From a virus (lineage: Duplodnaviria > Caudoviricetes), in IMG/VR virus record IMGVR_UViG_3300017700_000931, positions 32,001-96,000 of that record: 64,000 nucleotides of DNA; one strand, given 5' to 3'. The position numbers and the translations under genes are program-made. This document shows positions 130-41,434 of this stretch, in pieces (position 1 is the first letter of the stretch; every line of letters begins with the position of its first letter). The notes beneath the pieces were generated by a model. It saw only the letters and a list, made by a program, of their open reading frames with translations, was not told where the DNA came from and did no database searches.

Positions 130-218
130 TAGGGGTGGTGGGACTCGAACCCACAGGTGTATCTTACGTTTGCCGTGAATTTTAAGCCCACCGCCTTTGC
201 CAATTTGACCACACCCCC
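130..218 (-). tRNA. tRNA-Leu(UAA)
   Basis: Cloverleaf; anticodon arm GTGGG-CTTAAAA-TTCAC; long variable arm; TTCGAGT T-loop; no encoded CCA. Confidence 0.9.
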
Positions 219-227
219 ATTTAATAG

Positions 228-298
228 TAGCCCCAGATGGAATCGAACCATCGCTTTCTCCACGTCAAGGAGATATACTCCCATTATATTATGGGGCC
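228..298 (-). tRNA. tRNA-Val(GAC)
   Basis: TCTCC-TTGACGT-GGAGA anticodon arm; TTCGATT T-loop. Confidence 0.9.
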
Positions 299-303
299 AT
301 TTG

Positions 304-389
304 TAGCGGGAGGTGGATTCGAACCACCGCAAGCCTTCTTAGGGTCTCTAGGTTATGAGCCTAGCGAGTTACCACTTCTCCATCCCGCA
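304..389 (-). tRNA. tRNA-Met(CAU), initiator-like, with long variable region
   Basis: CTAGG-CTCATAA-CCTAG; U1:U72 mismatch; 17-nt variable region. Confidence 0.8.
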
Positions 390-394
390 ATTTG

Positions 395-478
395 TACCGA
401 AGGTGGGATTCGAACCCACACGCCCTTTCGGACACTGGTTTCTAAAACCAGCACGTCTAACCGTTCCATCACTTCGGC
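395..478 (-). tRNA. tRNA-Leu(UAG)
   Basis: CTGGT-TTTAGAA-ACCAG; long variable arm. Confidence 0.9.
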
Positions 479-484
479 ATATTG

Positions 485-572
485 TACCCCTACTCAGACT
501 CGAACTGAGAACGTTTCTTATGTTTTCCACGGCTTCTTAGACCGTAAGCTTTACCAGTTTGCTCATAAGGGC
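485..572 (-). tRNA. tRNA-Leu(AAG)
   Basis: ACGGT-CTAAGAA-GCCGT; long variable arm; A34. Confidence 0.85.
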
Positions 573-628
573 ATGTTCGGGCTACTATTCATTCGTCAAT
601 ACCGCCCGACCGTATTGATTCCAAATTG

Positions 629-714
629 TTGCAAAGGTAGGACTCGAACCTACAATTGGGTTTGCGACCCTCTCCCTCTCCGGGAGATGCGTATACCGAT
701 TCCGCCACATTGCA
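629..714 (-). tRNA. tRNA-Leu(GAG), non-canonical G33
   Basis: TCTCC-CGGAGAG-GGAGA; long variable arm GGGT-CGCAA-ACCC. Confidence 0.8.
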
Positions 715-741
715 AGGATACTTGTACTTCGTATCCCTTTG

Positions 742-827
742 TAGCCGAGGCGGGACTCGAACCCGCACGGGCATTTCTGCCCACCGGATTTTAAGTCCGG
801 CGTGTCTACCAATTCCACCACTCGGCC
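742..827 (-). tRNA. tRNA-Leu(UAA)
   Basis: CCGGA-CTTAAAA-TCCGG; canonical Leu D-arm. Confidence 0.95.
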
Positions 828-38681: not shown

Positions 38682-38797
38682 ATTTTTTAATCTCAATAAA
38701 TAAAAGAACGCTTTCTTTGTTTTAAATATAATACAAAGATACGAAAGTTATTTTAAATAGCAAGCTTTTTTTGAAATATTTTTAAAAAAAATTTATT

Positions 38798-39007
38798 TTA
38801 ATTCAAAAGTAGTTTATTTAAAACACACGCAAACCTATATGAATTAGGGCTTTCAGCCTTTAATATCGCTAATTCTCTTAATGTCCCCATTTCGATAAAT
38901 TTATAGTGCTCAATAATTTCCGGCTGAGTTTCTTGAATGATATTTCTATATCGAACATAAAATTTGTACCTATCAATTACCTCTCTAATCTTAAATGTTT
39001 TTTTCAT
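38798..39007 (-). CDS. hypothetical protein
   Basis: ORF in operon. Confidence 0.55.
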   Translation of the reverse strand: MKKTFKIREVIDRYKFYVRYRNIIQETQPEIIEHYKFIEMGTLRELAILKAESPNSYRFACVLNKLLLN

Positions 39008-39296
39008 CCTTTAACGATTGTTCATATTCTTCTTTATCTTCTTTCATTTCCATGTGTTCTTTTATTGGATTTATAATCCAAGCAAATATCAATAAAATGA
39101 GTATAAATACTAACCAATAGGCAACGCCAATTAAATATAGCCAGAAAGCCCAACCGTTATATGAGCTGGTATATGATAATCTAGCATCTATGCGCCAAAA
39201 AATTAAAAACCAGACGAAAGCTAAGACCATCCTACCTATGTTAGTTAACACTAACCATTTAGGGATTAGCTTAATGATGTCAATCAATTTTTCCAT
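38991..39296 (-). CDS. membrane protein
   Basis: Two TM segments. Confidence 0.6.
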   Translation of the reverse strand: MEKLIDIIKLIPKWLVLTNIGRMVLAFVWFLIFWRIDARLSYTSSYNGWAFWLYLIGVAYWLVFILILLIFAWIINPIKEHMEMKEDKEEYEQSLKDEKNI

Positions 39297-39333
39297 GTTT
39301 ATAAATATGGAAAAATTTAGGAAAAAACGTAAA

Positions 39334-39555
39334 TTACATTGATTTTTGTGGGTCTCCGTCTAAAACTTCAACAATAATAAAAATACCATGTTTTTTTAGT
39401 ATGTGATGAACAACAAAAACTACCTTATAATATTTTTTATCTTCCAAATAAATAAATTCTCCAGAACGGGGAATATGTTTGATTTTGATTAGTGGGATAA
39501 TCGTCTTCCAATCCTTATCTAAGATTGAAACACTATATCTATTGAATAGCCCCAT
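39334..39555 (-). CDS. hypothetical protein
   Basis: ORF in operon. Confidence 0.55.
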   Translation of the reverse strand: MGLFNRYSVSILDKDWKTIIPLIKIKHIPRSGEFIYLEDKKYYKVVFVVHHILKKHGIFIIVEVLDGDPQKSM

Positions 39556-40351
39556 AATTGTAGGTTTTATTACCCAATTCTATTATTGTGCTGGCACCAA
39601 GATTGATGGCTTTTTGAACATAACTTAATACTACGAATTCATGACTAGAATGCATATCCATGTATCCGGCAAAATAATTTATACAACAAACAGGATAGTT
39701 TTTTTTCAATTCTTTGACATCTGTGAATGGGTCTCTAATATTTGGTGCCGACATGTTATAAACGTCCCAAGTTGGTTTTAATATTTTAGCGAATGCATCA
39801 TCAAATAACTCAATACCACCACAAACTCTTGAAATCCAATTATCGGTTGGTGCATCGAACTGAATAAAGTAACCAACATCTAATAACCATTCTTCTTTTT
39901 TAGCAAAAGCAGAACCTCGACAACCGATTTCCTCTTCAACAAAAAAGGCACCCTTGATTGTTTTAAAATTAAGAATTAATGATAATGCAATGAATATTCC
40001 GGCTTTGTCATCACCACCACAACCTGTATTAACTTCCATTCCATTTGGTTTGAATTTAGTGGCATATAAAATATCACCATATTCACCATTAATTTCTTTT
40101 ATATTCAATTTGGAGCTCGACTTAACCATCAATACTTGGTCACTGTGTACTGTATCCATATGTGCAACCACACAAGGGTAAGATTCACCATCGAGTAATT
40201 CACCTTTTTTCATGAATATATTACCCTTTTCATCTTGTTTGACATCAATATTATTATCGATAGCCCAATTAATTAAAAATTCTCTAACTGATTCCTCTTT
40301 AGTAGAACAGCTTGGTATTGATAATATTTCTTTCAGTAATTCCTTATTCAT
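39539..40351 (-). CDS. M20/M28/M42-clan zinc peptidase
   Basis: AHMDTVH, GGDDKAG, EEIGCRGS, HSSHE. Confidence 0.85.
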   Translation of the reverse strand: MNKELLKEILSIPSCSTKEESVREFLINWAIDNNIDVKQDEKGNIFMKKGELLDGESYPCVVAHMDTVHSDQVLMVKSSSKLNIKEINGEYGDILYATKFKPNGMEVNTGCGGDDKAGIFIALSLILNFKTIKGAFFVEEEIGCRGSAFAKKEEWLLDVGYFIQFDAPTDNWISRVCGGIELFDDAFAKILKPTWDVYNMSAPNIRDPFTDVKELKKNYPVCCINYFAGYMDMHSSHEFVVLSYVQKAINLGASTIIELGNKTYNYGAIQ

Positions 40352-40466
40352 CTAGCAAAGATATGGGTTTTTTTATTAAAAACCAAATTTATCTGACTTT
40401 ACTATTTATTTTGGTTTGAAATGATATTTATTTAATAGATAACATATTACTAAAACTATAGAAATC

Positions 40467-40559
40467 ATGGGTTGTGGATGTAAAAAGAAAAAAACTGTCA
40501 TTGTAACTACTAACACTAATACAAGCACAGATACAAGTGGAACAAATGGTGGAAATTAA
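40467..40559 (+). CDS. small MGCGCKKKK peptide
   Basis: MGCGCKKKKTVIVTTNTNTSTDTSGTNGGN; A-rich upstream; stop inside a hairpin. Confidence 0.6.
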   Translation: MGCGCKKKKTVIVTTNTNTSTDTSGTNGGN

Positions 40560-40578
40560 TTTCCACCATTTTTTTTAA

Positions 40579-40932
40579 TTAAACATTATCAGCGTCGCTT
40601 GGTTTATCAGTATTGAATGTCTCTGTTACTGATTTTGACGATTGGGTGGTTGTAGTTTGTTGTTTATTTGACTTCATGACTTTAATCAACTCAATGAATT
40701 TACCTCCGAATACATAACCCCCAAATAATGTCATAGCATATTCTAATGCATCAACAATCATTTTGAAATTTTCCATTTGAATATCGTTTTTTACGATTCC
40801 AGAATACGTTAAGATTCCTAATGTGATATAGTAAGCGATTACTGACCAAAATAAATAAACTCTACCTTGTGAGTATACTCCATTTTCTTTAAGGATATCC
40901 TTAAATAATTTTACATTCCATTTCTTTTCCAT
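40579..40932 (-). CDS. two-TM membrane protein (holin-like topology)
   Basis: ATG at 40932; two hydrophobic helices. Confidence 0.55.
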   Translation of the reverse strand: MEKKWNVKLFKDILKENGVYSQGRVYLFWSVIAYYITLGILTYSGIVKNDIQMENFKMIVDALEYAMTLFGGYVFGGKFIELIKVMKSNKQQTTTTQSSKSVTETFNTDKPSDADNV

Positions 40933-41054
40933 CCTTAATTTGTTTAAAGATAAATACTCTGGAAAACAAAAAAAGCCCACCGAGTGTGAGCTTTTATGTC
41001 CTAGTTAAAGGTCCAATTTCTGACTTAGCGAATTTAAGCCAGAAGCAGTTTGCG

Positions 41055-41434
41055 TGGAGCTGGAGGGAGTCGAACCCTCGTCCTAATCTATTCTTCAATC
41101 ATTTTCTACGTGCTTAGTTCATTTTTTCTTTTCGAACAAAATATCAAATTTATTTACAACCCCATTTGCAAAGTTGCCCAGCCTTTTTATTTACATCACA
41201 GGTTAGGTCCTAGTGATGGGTTTCGTGAGTTTCCTCAGTTTTCCTATTGCATCAATTAGGCTGCAACAGCCTCTCCAGCAACAACTTCTACAGAAGCGTT
41301 AGCAAGGAAGTTTTCGGAAATATTGAAAATATTGCCATTTGAACTTTTGTAAAATATTGTTTTAACTGCTTATTCACATCGCAGTGCATGCTTACAATTT
41401 ACGACCATAGACAGTCAAATCCAAGGTCAGCCCC
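41055..41434 (-). ncRNA. ssrA: tmRNA; tag GNIFNISENFLANASVEVVAGEAVAA (41256-41336)
   Basis: 5' GGGGCTGA..GGATTTGAC, 3' GAGGGTTCGACTCCCTC-CAGCTCCA; G3:U70; tag ORF ending AA-stop; TATCTTTG at 41469-41476. Confidence 0.95.

What the first reader, a model, noticed from the sequence alone, without database searches (positions are those of the whole stretch)
130..41434. Integrated phage translation-surveillance network: each rescue module is gated by the ribosome defect it would fix
Several independent elements point the same way. Two tRNA arrays sit under codon-matched leader-peptide attenuators. An RF1-like gene needs UGA bypass plus a UAG-triggered frameshift. A Pth2-like gene needs UAG readthrough. 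Alongside these are a tmRNA next to ClpP, Smr, CCA-adding enzyme, Rnl1/Pnk repair and an alarmone hydrolase. Inference: the phage senses host anti-translation defence (anticodon nucleases, tRNA modification toxins, release-factor loss) through its own ribosome traffic and induces the matching replacement. I know of no description of this regulatory layer in phage.
Basis: partly seen in the sequence, partly recalled or inferred. Interest (0 to 1): 0.95.

Follow-up and report, generated by a model that had tools for sequence, protein, structure and literature searches.

The report
Ribosome-gated translation toolkit of a jumbo phage
A 362-kb phage carries tRNA operons, a short release factor gene and a peptidyl-tRNA-hydrolase-like gene that can each be expressed only after a particular decoding event by the ribosome; these built-in gates are real and conserved in related phages, but the idea that they form one defence-sensing network is not shown.

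Summary
Three kinds of gate are real and conserved in relatives.

1. Both tRNA arrays in the window, and two more elsewhere in the genome, follow the same plan. A shared promoter box is followed by a ~30-codon leader spelled in the amino acids of the downstream tRNAs. An antiterminator strand lies near codons 20-23, and an intrinsic terminator follows.

2. A domain-1-less RF1-type release factor gene needs read-through of a UGA that replaces a conserved Trp codon. It also needs a +1 shift at CUU UAG C. All 11 family members read at DNA level have at least one premature stop in the first ~57 codons. The downstream frame is under purifying selection.

3. A Pth2-like gene starts ATG + 2 codons + UAG. 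The amber codon is present in all 11 relatives read, nearly always just downstream of a tRNA(CUA) gene.

The remaining genes (tmRNA/ClpP, Smr-like, CCA enzyme, Rnl1, kinase, HD hydrolase) are present but show no gate.

The "integrated network that senses host defence" is inference. The UGA hurdles do not match RF1 specificity. The amber gate looks slaved to the phage's own suppressor tRNA.

This scan had already noted frameshift-gated short RF1 genes, and a PTH2-like gene coupled to an odd tRNA, on other DNA.

The parts
129..1416 (-). tRNA operon C: Cys, Val x3, Leu x6 (anticodons CAA, UAA x2, GAG, AAG, UAG), Met
   Evidence: ARAGORN and Rfam
1431..1464 (-). Intrinsic terminator of leader C (11-bp stem plus U-run, -15.5 kcal/mol)
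   Evidence: Sequence; fold
1489..1581 (-). Leader C, 30 codons. The run ..VLLNSVLCLLVLEC.. uses five different Leu codons that match the five Leu anticodons downstream. The antiterminator strand lies at 1511-1523.
   Evidence: ortholog in L021
1598..1650 (-). Promoter box shared by the tRNA operons; contains TATCTTTG, a Bacteroidota-type -7 motif (own knowledge)
   Evidence: Identical copy before array 2 and a 10-mismatch copy at genome 16185-16237
1705..1929 (-). Smr-like 74-aa protein (borderline Pfam match)
   Evidence: PF01713, 26.0 bits against cut-off 25.7; relatives keep it upstream of the same operon
10908..11960 (-). RNA ligase (PF09414)
14119..14625 (-). Small RelA/SpoT-type HD hydrolase (alarmone-hydrolase-like)
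   Evidence: PF13328 E 1.1e-9; TIGR00691 E 4.9e-15
15410..16537 (-). Rnl1-type RNA ligase
   Evidence: PF09511; TIGR02308
20227..21147 (-). P-loop polynucleotide-kinase-like protein with a weak CPD-type C-terminus
   Evidence: PF13671 E 1.5e-10, PF08302 E 2.4e-4
22932..26136 (-). tRNA operon D: His-like, Trp, Ser x4, His, Asn x3, Arg x5, Ile x2, Met/CAU x3, and one unassigned tRNA
26129..26329 (-). Conserved 66-codon ORF between the terminator and the first tRNA
   Evidence: tblastn hits in L013, L016, L018; no Pfam family
26328..26356 (-). Intrinsic terminator of leader D (-13.6 kcal/mol plus U-run)
26385..26477 (-). Leader D, 30 codons. In codons 2-19 (MTMHIHMISISNWRRNSS) 17 of 18 are from the array's amino acids. 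The antiterminator strand lies at 26408-26418.
   Evidence: orthologs in L008, L012, L013, L016, L018
26497..26549 (-). Promoter box of operon D (identical to the one at 1598-1650)
27226..28383 (-). CCA-adding enzyme / poly(A) polymerase family
   Evidence: PF01743 E 5.8e-37; NF009814
35148..35501 (-). Pth2-like gene: ATG AAA AAT, then TAG (35492-35490), then 113 codons
   Evidence: PF01981 29.2 bits; the amber codon is kept in 11 of 11 relatives read
35522..35588 (-). Odd 67-nt tRNA-like gene with CUA in the anticodon loop and a reduced D arm, 20 nt upstream of the Pth2-like ATG
   Evidence: Rfam 23.7 bits, below gathering score. ARAGORN finds it only at relaxed settings. Its closest relative L031 keeps it with compensatory changes in the acceptor and T stems.
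37055..37739 (-). Short RF1-type release factor gene: frame 0 from ATG 37739, TGA at 37619-37617, CTT TAG C at 37577-37571, then the +1 frame to TAA at 37057-37055
38116..38188 (-). tRNA(CAU) immediately upstream of the release factor gene; this position is conserved in relatives
41052..41434 (-). tmRNA; G3:U70 in the acceptor stem; tag frame ends ..AGEAVAA then UAA
   Evidence: RF00023 89.7 bits. Also found after ClpP in L008, L010, L012, L016, L017, L018. SmpB lies elsewhere in the genome.
41508..42236 (-). ClpP protease
   Evidence: PF00574 E 6.3e-59
43272..44318 (-). DnaJ; start of the conserved block DnaJ - metallopeptidase-like - ClpP - tmRNA
   Evidence: synteny

Best explanation
This is the translation and RNA-repair arm of a jumbo phage with Bacteroidota-type promoters. 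Three kinds of genes carry separate cis-acting devices that the translating ribosome reads. Each most likely works as a local feedback or dependency switch.

(1) tRNA operons. Transcription starts at a shared promoter box and a ribosome translates a ~30-codon leader. If the ribosome is slow on codons 2 to about 16, which are drawn from the amino acids of the tRNAs encoded downstream, the strand at codons 20-23 stays free. That strand pairs with the 5' arm of the terminator, and RNA polymerase reads on into the tRNA genes. If decoding is fast, the ribosome covers that strand while the terminator is being made, and transcription stops. The anatomy, the codon match and the conservation are shown. 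The response to stalling is inferred.

(2) Short RF1-type factor (domains 2-4 only). The full protein requires read-through of a UGA that replaces a conserved Trp codon. It also requires a +1 slip of tRNA-Leu from CUU to UUU when the A-site UAG is not decoded promptly. Synthesis therefore rises when termination at these stops is slow, which is the logic of prfB. The gene anatomy, its conservation and selection on the downstream frame are shown. Frameshift efficiency and its dependence on release factors are inferred.

(3) Pth2-like gene. It has no usable start codon except an ATG that is followed after two codons by UAG. The protein is made only when that UAG is read as sense, most likely by the phage tRNA(CUA) encoded just upstream.

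The neighbouring tmRNA, ClpP, CCA enzyme, ligases, kinase, HD hydrolase and Smr-like genes are ordinary members of a huge-phage translation toolkit with no visible gate.
For: tRNA leaders:
- Four leaders in one genome give a diagonal 4x4 table of in-set runs: 13, 11, 7 and 16, against 4 or fewer off the diagonal. Three of them hold the longest such run among 948 small ORFs.
- The runs together cover all 20 amino acids.
- The best pairing of the terminator's 5' arm with the leader ORF ends at nt 70-71 in leaders A, C and D. Energies are -17.5, -15.9 and -15.5 kcal/mol, with control p 0.004 or less.
- Orthologous leaders keep the peptide core, the terminator and a cognate 8-10-bp antiterminator in L008, L012, L013, L016, L018 and L021.
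- L014 has differently composed arrays, and its leaders differ to match.

Release factor:
- It is RF1-type: 145 bits to RF1 against 80 to RF2, and it aligns to E. coli RF1 residues 111-340. prfA scores 188-197 bits against 103 for prfB.
- CTA TGY CTT TAG CGG is identical at nucleotide level in WIN, L008, L010 and L012, while the flanks differ.
- 51 of 120 homolog clusters carry its +1-frame signature.
- All 11 genes read at DNA level have a premature stop in the first ~57 codons.
- Downstream of the stops, dN/dS is about 0.08-0.3 with saturated synonymous sites and no stop in 172 codons.

Pth2-like gene:
- TAG is kept in 11 of 11 loci.
- A canonical tRNA(CUA) lies upstream in 7 loci, and the odd 67-nt form in WIN and L031. 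The odd form shows compensatory stem changes between the two.

The genome is not recoded overall.
Against:
- Leader B has only a weak antiterminator (-10.1 kcal/mol, p 0.15).
- Cognate antiterminator pairs beat non-cognate pairs only modestly (29 of 720 permutations).
- In the leaders the antiterminator strand lies about 7 codons before the stop codon. The fast-ribosome state therefore relies on timing, not on a ribosome parked at the stop.
- The UGA hurdles and the CUU UGA C variant (L019) do not match RF1 specificity, so strict autoregulation holds at best for the UAG site.
- No Shine-Dalgarno-like stimulator precedes the shift site.
- The tRNA(CUA) of this genome scores below Rfam's threshold and has a poor anticodon stem.
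- Initiation at the AUU that follows the UAG cannot be excluded.
Confidence: 0.7

Rival explanations
1. The gated genes and their ungated neighbours form one integrated surveillance network. Through ribosome traffic it detects host anti-translation defences (anticodon nucleases, tRNA-modifying toxins, release factor loss) and induces the matching replacement part.
For: - The gated genes lie in one conserved block with tmRNA, ClpP, CCA enzyme, RNA ligases and kinase.
- Leaders that sample many synonymous codons, including rare ones, would detect loss of single isoacceptors.
- Rnl1 plus a kinase is the T4 answer to the anticodon nuclease PrrC (own knowledge).
Against: - Nothing here links any gate to a defence system.
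- The UGA hurdles and the amber gate do not report the defect that their product would repair.
- Most of the listed modules have no gate.
- Simple dosage feedback on the phage's own tRNA output explains the leaders equally well.
Confidence: 0.25
2. Timer or dependency model. The in-frame stops are not sensors of trouble. They are locks opened by the phage's own decoding RNAs: tRNA(CUA) for UAG, and perhaps an unusual tRNA-Trp for UGA. The Pth2-like enzyme and the release factor then appear only after, and in proportion to, suppressor activity. This would be a small-scale version of the code-change modules of recoded phages.
For: - A tRNA(CUA) gene lies directly upstream of the amber-gated gene in 9 of 11 loci.
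- UGA sits at conserved Trp codons in WIN, L007, L008, L016-L019 and L034, while a third Trp codon stays UGG.
- Borges et al. describe suppressor tRNA plus release factor modules in recoded phages.
- An earlier scan note on other DNA reports a PTH2-like gene reached through a neighbouring odd tRNA.
Against: - No tRNA with a UCA anticodon was found in this genome.
- In-frame reading of the UAG in the release factor gene by a suppressor gives a dead-end frame-0 product. That site therefore needs the shift, not suppression.
- The genome has no other recoded genes.
Confidence: 0.35
3. The interruptions are decay or artefact: nonsense and frameshift mutations in dispensable genes, or assembly errors. 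The leaders are chance small ORFs.
For: - TGG to TGA is a one-step transition that is common in AT-rich genomes.
- A single T insertion in CTT AGC would create CTT TAG C.
- Gene callers report many homologs as uninterrupted.
Against: - The same sites recur in independent assemblies from different samples.
- The "uninterrupted" proteins that could be checked were called with TGA=W or TAG=Q and carry the stops in their DNA.
- Purifying selection acts downstream of the stops.
- The leader statistics and their conservation exclude chance.
Confidence: 0.03

Closest known systems
Multivalent leader-peptide transcription attenuators of amino-acid operons (thrL, ilvL, hisL, trpL)
   Same: A promoter-proximal ~30-codon ORF with a run of regulatory codons, followed by mutually exclusive antiterminator and terminator pairings. 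Several amino acids are sensed by one leader, as in thrL and ilvL.
   Different: The regulated genes are tRNA genes, not biosynthetic enzymes. The codon set mirrors the tRNA set, in part down to isoacceptor level. No 1:2 pause hairpin was identified, and the antiterminator strand lies inside the ORF. My searches found no paper describing such control of tRNA genes.
prfB (RF2) autoregulatory +1 programmed frameshift, CUU UGA C
   Same: The same slippery codon and the same C after the stop. The shift restores collinearity with homologs. The stop is the kind read by the encoded factor type.
   Different: The factor is RF1-type, the stop is UAG, and there is no Shine-Dalgarno-like stimulator. The site lies in domain 2, at codon 54, because domain 1 is absent. 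Prince et al. 2025 (PMC12421855) found no TAG in the prfB motif of 8,164 genomes and no evidence for frameshifting in prfA.
Mimivirus/Megavirus class-I release factor gene (Jeudy et al. 2012, PMC3521657)
   Same: A viral release factor gene that is translated through two internal stops, by one read-through and one frameshift.
   Different: That factor is eRF1/aRF1-type in a virus of amoebae. This one is bacterial RF1-type in a phage, and its relatives use several alternative stop layouts.
Code-change modules of stop-codon-recoded phages (Borges et al., bioRxiv 10.1101/2021.08.26.457843)
   Same: A phage-encoded suppressor tRNA and a release factor lie near each other, and in-frame stops act as an expression gate.
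   Different: Here the genome is not recoded. The stops are confined to two regulatory genes, and an amber suppressor is paired with an RF1-type factor, which would oppose it.
Translation gene inventory of huge phages (Al-Shayeb et al. 2020, PMC7162821)
   Same: tRNAs, CCA enzyme, RF1/RF2, tmRNA and SmpB in phages above 200 kb. The nearest GenBank matches of the release factor and the CCA enzyme are 595-735-kb metagenomic phage records, which I take to be huge-phage genomes of that kind (own knowledge, not checked).
   Different: That work lists the genes. It does not describe leaders, premature stops or frameshift sites.

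Membership tests
Leader-peptide (ribosome-mediated) transcription attenuator | Short ORF directly behind a promoter and upstream of the regulated genes | tested here: met
   Promoter box, then a 30-codon ORF, then the tRNAs, at both arrays
Leader-peptide (ribosome-mediated) transcription attenuator | Run of regulatory codons tied to the function of the regulated genes | tested here: met
   In-set runs of 7 and 16 codons in the window and 13 and 11 outside it; runs against other arrays' sets are 4 or fewer
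Leader-peptide (ribosome-mediated) transcription attenuator | Intrinsic terminator plus an alternative antiterminator pairing that involves the leader | tested here: met
   Terminators of -13.6 and -15.5 kcal/mol; antiterminators of -15.5 and -15.9 kcal/mol ending at codon 23, p 0.004; kept in orthologs
Leader-peptide (ribosome-mediated) transcription attenuator | Regulated genes are amino-acid biosynthesis or related protein genes | tested here: not met
   The regulated genes are tRNA genes plus one 66-codon ORF
Leader-peptide (ribosome-mediated) transcription attenuator | Read-through rises when the ribosome stalls on the regulatory codons | not testable with these tools
   No expression data available
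prfB-type autoregulatory +1 frameshift | CUU-stop-C shift site, with the +1 frame restoring collinearity with homologs | tested here: met
   CTT TAG C at 37577-37571; the product has the same length as W-type relatives over this stretch
prfB-type autoregulatory +1 frameshift | Conservation of the site across diverged relatives | tested here: met
   The same 15 nucleotides in WIN, L008, L010 and L012; the +1-frame signature in 51 of 120 clusters
prfB-type autoregulatory +1 frameshift | The in-frame stop is specific to the encoded factor | tested here: inconclusive
   UAG fits an RF1-type PxT factor, but L019 uses CUU UGA C and many members carry UGA hurdles
prfB-type autoregulatory +1 frameshift | Shine-Dalgarno-like stimulator 3 nt upstream of CUU | tested here: not met
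   The upstream sequence is CTA TGY, with no GGAGG-like element
prfB-type autoregulatory +1 frameshift | The gene encodes RF2 | tested here: not met
   RF1 profiles and structures score about twice as high as RF2
Class-I release factor RF1 (prfA) | GGQ motif and PxT tripeptide | tested here: met
   GSGGQ and PPT in the +1 frame; 10 of 120 relatives have SPT instead
Class-I release factor RF1 (prfA) | Full four-domain architecture, scoring above the equivalog cut-off | tested here: not met
   Aligns to E. coli RF1 residues 111-340 only; 188-197 bits against cut-offs of 400-423
Pth2 peptidyl-tRNA hydrolase (PF01981) | Profile match above the family threshold | tested here: inconclusive
   Pfam 29.2 bits against cut-off 23, but NCBIfam Pth2 25.4 bits against cut-off 126. 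A second, strong Pth2 lies at genome 199759-200112.
tmRNA (RF00023) | Covariance-model match, tRNA-like domain with G3:U70, tag frame ending in Ala-Ala plus stop, SmpB partner | tested here: met
   89.7 bits against 47; acceptor GGGGCUG with G3:U70; tag ends ..AGEAVAA then UAA; SmpB at 181 bits in the genome
Stop-codon-recoded phage (code 15 or code 4) | Many genes with in-frame TAG or TGA, so that coding density improves under the alternative code | tested here: not met
   ORF coverage is 0.80 under code 11, 0.82 with TAG read as Gln and 0.84 with TGA read as Trp, with no region gaining much. TAG ends 23 and TGA ends 35 of 284 long ORFs.

The most novel reading that the evidence does not exclude
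The phage runs a closed-loop translation homeostat. Four attenuators divide all 20 amino acids among four tRNA operons, and each reports in real time whether its own set of codons is being decoded. The release factor gene and the Pth2-like gene are wired to the two non-UAA stop codons. Together these gates would let the phage detect and compensate for tRNA cleavage, tRNA shortage, or altered termination caused by host defences or by its own suppressor tRNA.
Probability: 0.25. Interest if true: 0.95.

Novelty: new variant of a known kind. Interest (0 to 1): 0.85.

Why it matters
Leader-peptide attenuation and the RF2 frameshift are textbook devices. Each is known for one class of genes. Here the first controls tRNA genes, with leaders that spell out the tRNA set behind them. 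The second appears in an RF1-type gene with the RF1-specific stop, which a 2025 survey of more than 12,000 bacterial genomes did not find (PMC12421855).

If the leaders work as predicted, phages regulate their tRNA supply by direct read-out of decoding speed. This bears on why large phages carry near-complete tRNA sets and how they cope with tRNA-targeting defences.

The stop-codon hurdles, in a genome that is otherwise standard-coded, also show a possible early stage of stop-codon recoding: recoded positions confined to regulatory genes next to a suppressor tRNA.

All three devices are short and portable, and can be tested directly with reporters.

Tried and rejected
- Genome-wide recoding was rejected. 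Coding coverage hardly changes with TAG read as Gln or TGA read as Trp. There is no excess of in-frame TAG/TGA ORF pairs. The only gene with an early TAG and no later start is the Pth2-like gene.
- A candidate UGA-gated ORF at genome 206814 proved to be the non-coding strand.
- My first reading that many relatives have uninterrupted release factor genes, and a Gln codon in place of the amber codon, was wrong. The database proteins that could be checked were called with TGA=W or TAG=Q, and their DNA carries the stops. The mixing of "U" with other classes in the tree therefore shows switching between the frameshift layout and the TGA layout (or recombination). It does not show loss of the gate.
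- My first reading of the window's tRNA(CUA) as a dead relic was softened. Its closest relative keeps it with compensatory changes.
- An exact scan for the promoter box in viral contigs found nothing.
- ARAGORN misses the tmRNA that Rfam finds.
- The ORF at 1352-1540, which runs through the terminator, was rejected as leader C in favour of 1489-1581.
- A full-length prfA hit in an "Acinetobacter phage" record lies next to hemK and looks bacterial, so it was set aside.

Full report
CONTEXT

The window is bases 32001-96000 of a 362,532-bp virus record with direct terminal repeats. GC content is about 32%, genes lie almost all on the minus strand, and the standard code fits. The genome has 57 ARAGORN tRNA genes and no canonical suppressor. 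TAA ends 226 of 284 long ORFs, TGA 35 and TAG 23. The nearest GenBank matches of the CCA enzyme and the release factor are metagenomic phage records of 595-735 kb. No cultured relative was found.

INVENTORY

- Smr-like 1705-1929, borderline.
- RNA ligase 10908-11960, HD_4 hydrolase 14119-14625 and Rnl1 15410-16537.
- Kinase with a weak CPD-type tail 20227-21147, and CCA enzyme 27226-28383.
- ClpP 41508-42236.
- tmRNA 41052-41434, 89.7 bits. It has G3:U70 and a tag frame ending ..AGEAVAA.

SmpB is encoded elsewhere in the genome. The block DnaJ - metallopeptidase-like - ClpP - tmRNA - tRNA(CAU) - release factor - tRNA(CUA) - Pth2-like - CCA enzyme - leader D - tRNA array recurs in six related contigs from independent samples. 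Such an inventory is known for huge phages (PMC7162821).

tRNA LEADERS

Both arrays are preceded by an identical 53-nt box containing TATCTTTG. A third copy lies at genome 16185-16237. A fourth operon has a similar promoter. The -7 motif consensus for Bacteroidota promoters is from my own knowledge.

Behind each promoter comes an ORF of 29-31 codons, then a hairpin with a U-run, then the tRNAs.

The real leader of array 1 is 1489-1581. It is not the ORF at 1352-1540, which runs through the terminator.

The core runs are:
- Leader A: TYQPKQYTQGGKP, before Pro/Gln/Tyr/Thr/Gly/Lys.
- Leader B: FDFAFEAAEAD, before Phe/Glu/Gln/Asp/Ala.
- Leader C: VLLNSVLCLLVLEC, before Cys/Val/Leu/Met.
- Leader D: MTMHIHMISISNWRRNSS, before His/Trp/Ser/Asn/Arg/Ile/Met.

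The 4x4 table of longest in-set runs is 13, 11, 7 and 16 on the diagonal and 4 or fewer elsewhere. Three leaders hold the longest such run among all 948 ORFs of 25-40 codons in the genome, and the fourth is among the top six. The four runs together contain all 20 amino acids.

Leader C uses five different Leu codons and lacks CTG. The array has the five matching anticodons and lacks CAG. With genome codon usage, five or more distinct Leu codons in seven draws has probability 0.05.

The 5' arm of each terminator finds its best partner inside the leader ORF, ending at nt 70-71 (codon 23) in leaders A, C and D. Energies are -17.5, -15.9 and -15.5 kcal/mol. Random genome segments give about -7 +/- 2.3 (p 0.004 or less). 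Leader B is weak, at -10.1.

Orthologs of leader D in L008, L012, L013, L016 and L018, and of leader C in L021, keep three things: the peptide core (..INIHMIS..NWRRNS.. and ..VNIL.LNLVLCLVVL..), the terminator, and a cognate antiterminator of 8-10 bp. The stems differ between phages, for example GUCAGG/CCUGAC in L012 against GUCGGG/CCCGA in L016. Cognate pairs beat shuffled assignments in all but 29 of 720 permutations.

L013's array includes tRNA-Thr, and 17 of 17 codons of its leader run are in the set. L014 has differently composed arrays whose leaders differ accordingly.

The model (stall, then free antiterminator, then read-through) is inferred from this anatomy. The fast-ribosome state depends on timing, because the antiterminator strand lies about 7 codons before the stop. 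Two literature searches found no description of attenuator control of tRNA genes.

RELEASE FACTOR

Frame 0 opens at ATG 37739 with the start of RF domain 2 (..LEIRDAEGG..). It meets TGA at 37619, continues for 14 codons and ends at CTT TAG C. The +1 frame then carries PPT, GGQ and the rest, to 37055.

The protein is RF1-type and lacks domain 1.

Of 312 homologs, the top 120 fall into three groups: 51 with the +1-frame signature of the shift site, 44 that look uninterrupted, and 22 short calls.

At DNA level the layouts are:
- WIN, L008, L010 and L012 share CTA TGY CTT TAG CGG.
- L019 has CTT TGA C.
- L016, L017, L018 and L034 have TGA at both conserved Trp codons, each followed by C, while the third Trp codon is TGG.
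- L007 and the huge-phage record L037 have a single TGA.

The one "uninterrupted" protein I could check (P0003, three contigs) had been called with TGA=W. So 11 of 11 genes read carry a premature stop within about 57 codons.

Downstream of the stops there are 172 codons without a stop in all nine genes compared. pS is 0.54-0.83 and dN/dS about 0.08-0.3. The downstream frame is therefore translated.

The layouts are intermixed on a tree of the C-terminal core. This implies switching between layouts, or recombination.

Prince et al. report no TAG in the prfB motif and no programmed shift in prfA. Mimivirus has a release factor gene with a shift plus a read-through.

The UAG shift fits RF1 autoregulation. 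The UGA hurdles do not, unless this factor also reads UGA. Ten relatives have SPT instead of PPT, and all ten are in the frameshift class.

Pth2-LIKE GENE

The only upstream start is ATG AAA AAT, followed by TAG. The next ATG/GTG/TTG is 90 codons further on, past the start of the domain match.

All 11 relatives read have ATG, 1-3 codons, then TAG, followed by ATT in ten and GTA in one. Database proteins that show Gln at this position were called with TAG=Q.

A canonical tRNA(CUA) lies up to about 250 nt upstream in seven loci. WIN and its closest relative L031 instead have a 67-nt tRNA-like gene with a reduced D arm and a weak anticodon stem. It scores 23.7 bits, below Rfam's threshold. The two copies differ by compensatory changes in the acceptor and T stems, so it is probably kept for function.

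Suppression by this tRNA is the simplest reading. Initiation at the AUU after the stop is not excluded. A second Pth2, ordinary and strongly scoring, lies at genome 199759-200112.

VERDICT

The observations are confirmed and extended. The three devices are best read as separate local switches. The umbrella claim of one network tuned to host defences remains untested, and its rule "gated by the defect it fixes" fails for the UGA and amber gates.

Earlier notes of this scan on other genomes describe frameshift-gated short RF1 genes in over a hundred relatives. They also describe a PTH2-like gene reached through a neighbouring odd tRNA. I used these as leads only.

Noticed in passing
window 30560-34193: A phage-borne cluster of a NadR-like NMN adenylyltransferase/kinase, a PnuC NMN transporter and a 657-aa TonB-dependent receptor with a plug domain. 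An outer-membrane receptor gene is unusual cargo for a phage.
   Followed up: no
window 26558-27175: A 205-aa protein beginning Met-Thr, with a weak proteasome/HslV-type N-terminal match. It lies between the CCA enzyme and the promoter of tRNA operon D.
   Followed up: no
window 1330-1416, 303-389, 25930-26009, 24292-24380, 24919-25003: Several tRNAs of amino acids that normally have short variable regions (Cys, Met/CAU, Trp, Asn, Ile) are 80-89 nt long, with long variable arms or insertions.
   Followed up: partly
window 23043-23489 (+): An ORF with Cys-rich and HNH-like motifs lies on the opposite strand inside tRNA array 2. Relative L012 has a similar insertion between the leader and the tRNAs. 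No Pfam match at E 0.01.
   Followed up: no
window 17639-21147: Downstream of Rnl1 lie NUDIX, NADAR, a nucleoside 2-deoxyribosyltransferase-like gene, a zinc-ribbon gene and the kinase/CPD-like gene. This suggests a eukaryote-like (Trl1-style) tRNA healing route with handling of NAD-derived products.
   Followed up: no
L018:9452-9600 and L017:9581-9654: In relatives, tRNA-like genes with 6-nt anticodon loops and unusual T loops sit between tRNA(CAU) genes directly upstream of the release factor gene. The window has only the tRNA(CAU) there.
   Followed up: partly
RF homologs P0019, P0023, P0035, P0064, P0071, P0072, P0092, P0108, P0111, P0113: Ten of 120 short release factors carry SPT instead of PPT at the tripeptide that reads the stop codon, and all ten are in the frameshift class. 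SPT combines the first residue of RF2's motif with the last residue of RF1's.
   Followed up: no
genome 323728-324156 and 199759-200112 (outside the window): The phage also encodes SmpB (181 bits) and a second, uninterrupted Pth2 (110.8 bits).
   Followed up: partly
window 4845-5156 (+): A T5orf172/MUG113-family gene lies on the strand opposite to nearly all other genes, which suggests a mobile insertion.
   Followed up: no
window 26129-26329: The first gene under attenuator D is not a tRNA but a conserved 66-codon ORF of unknown function. It is present at the same place in L008, L012, L013, L016 and L018.
   Followed up: partly
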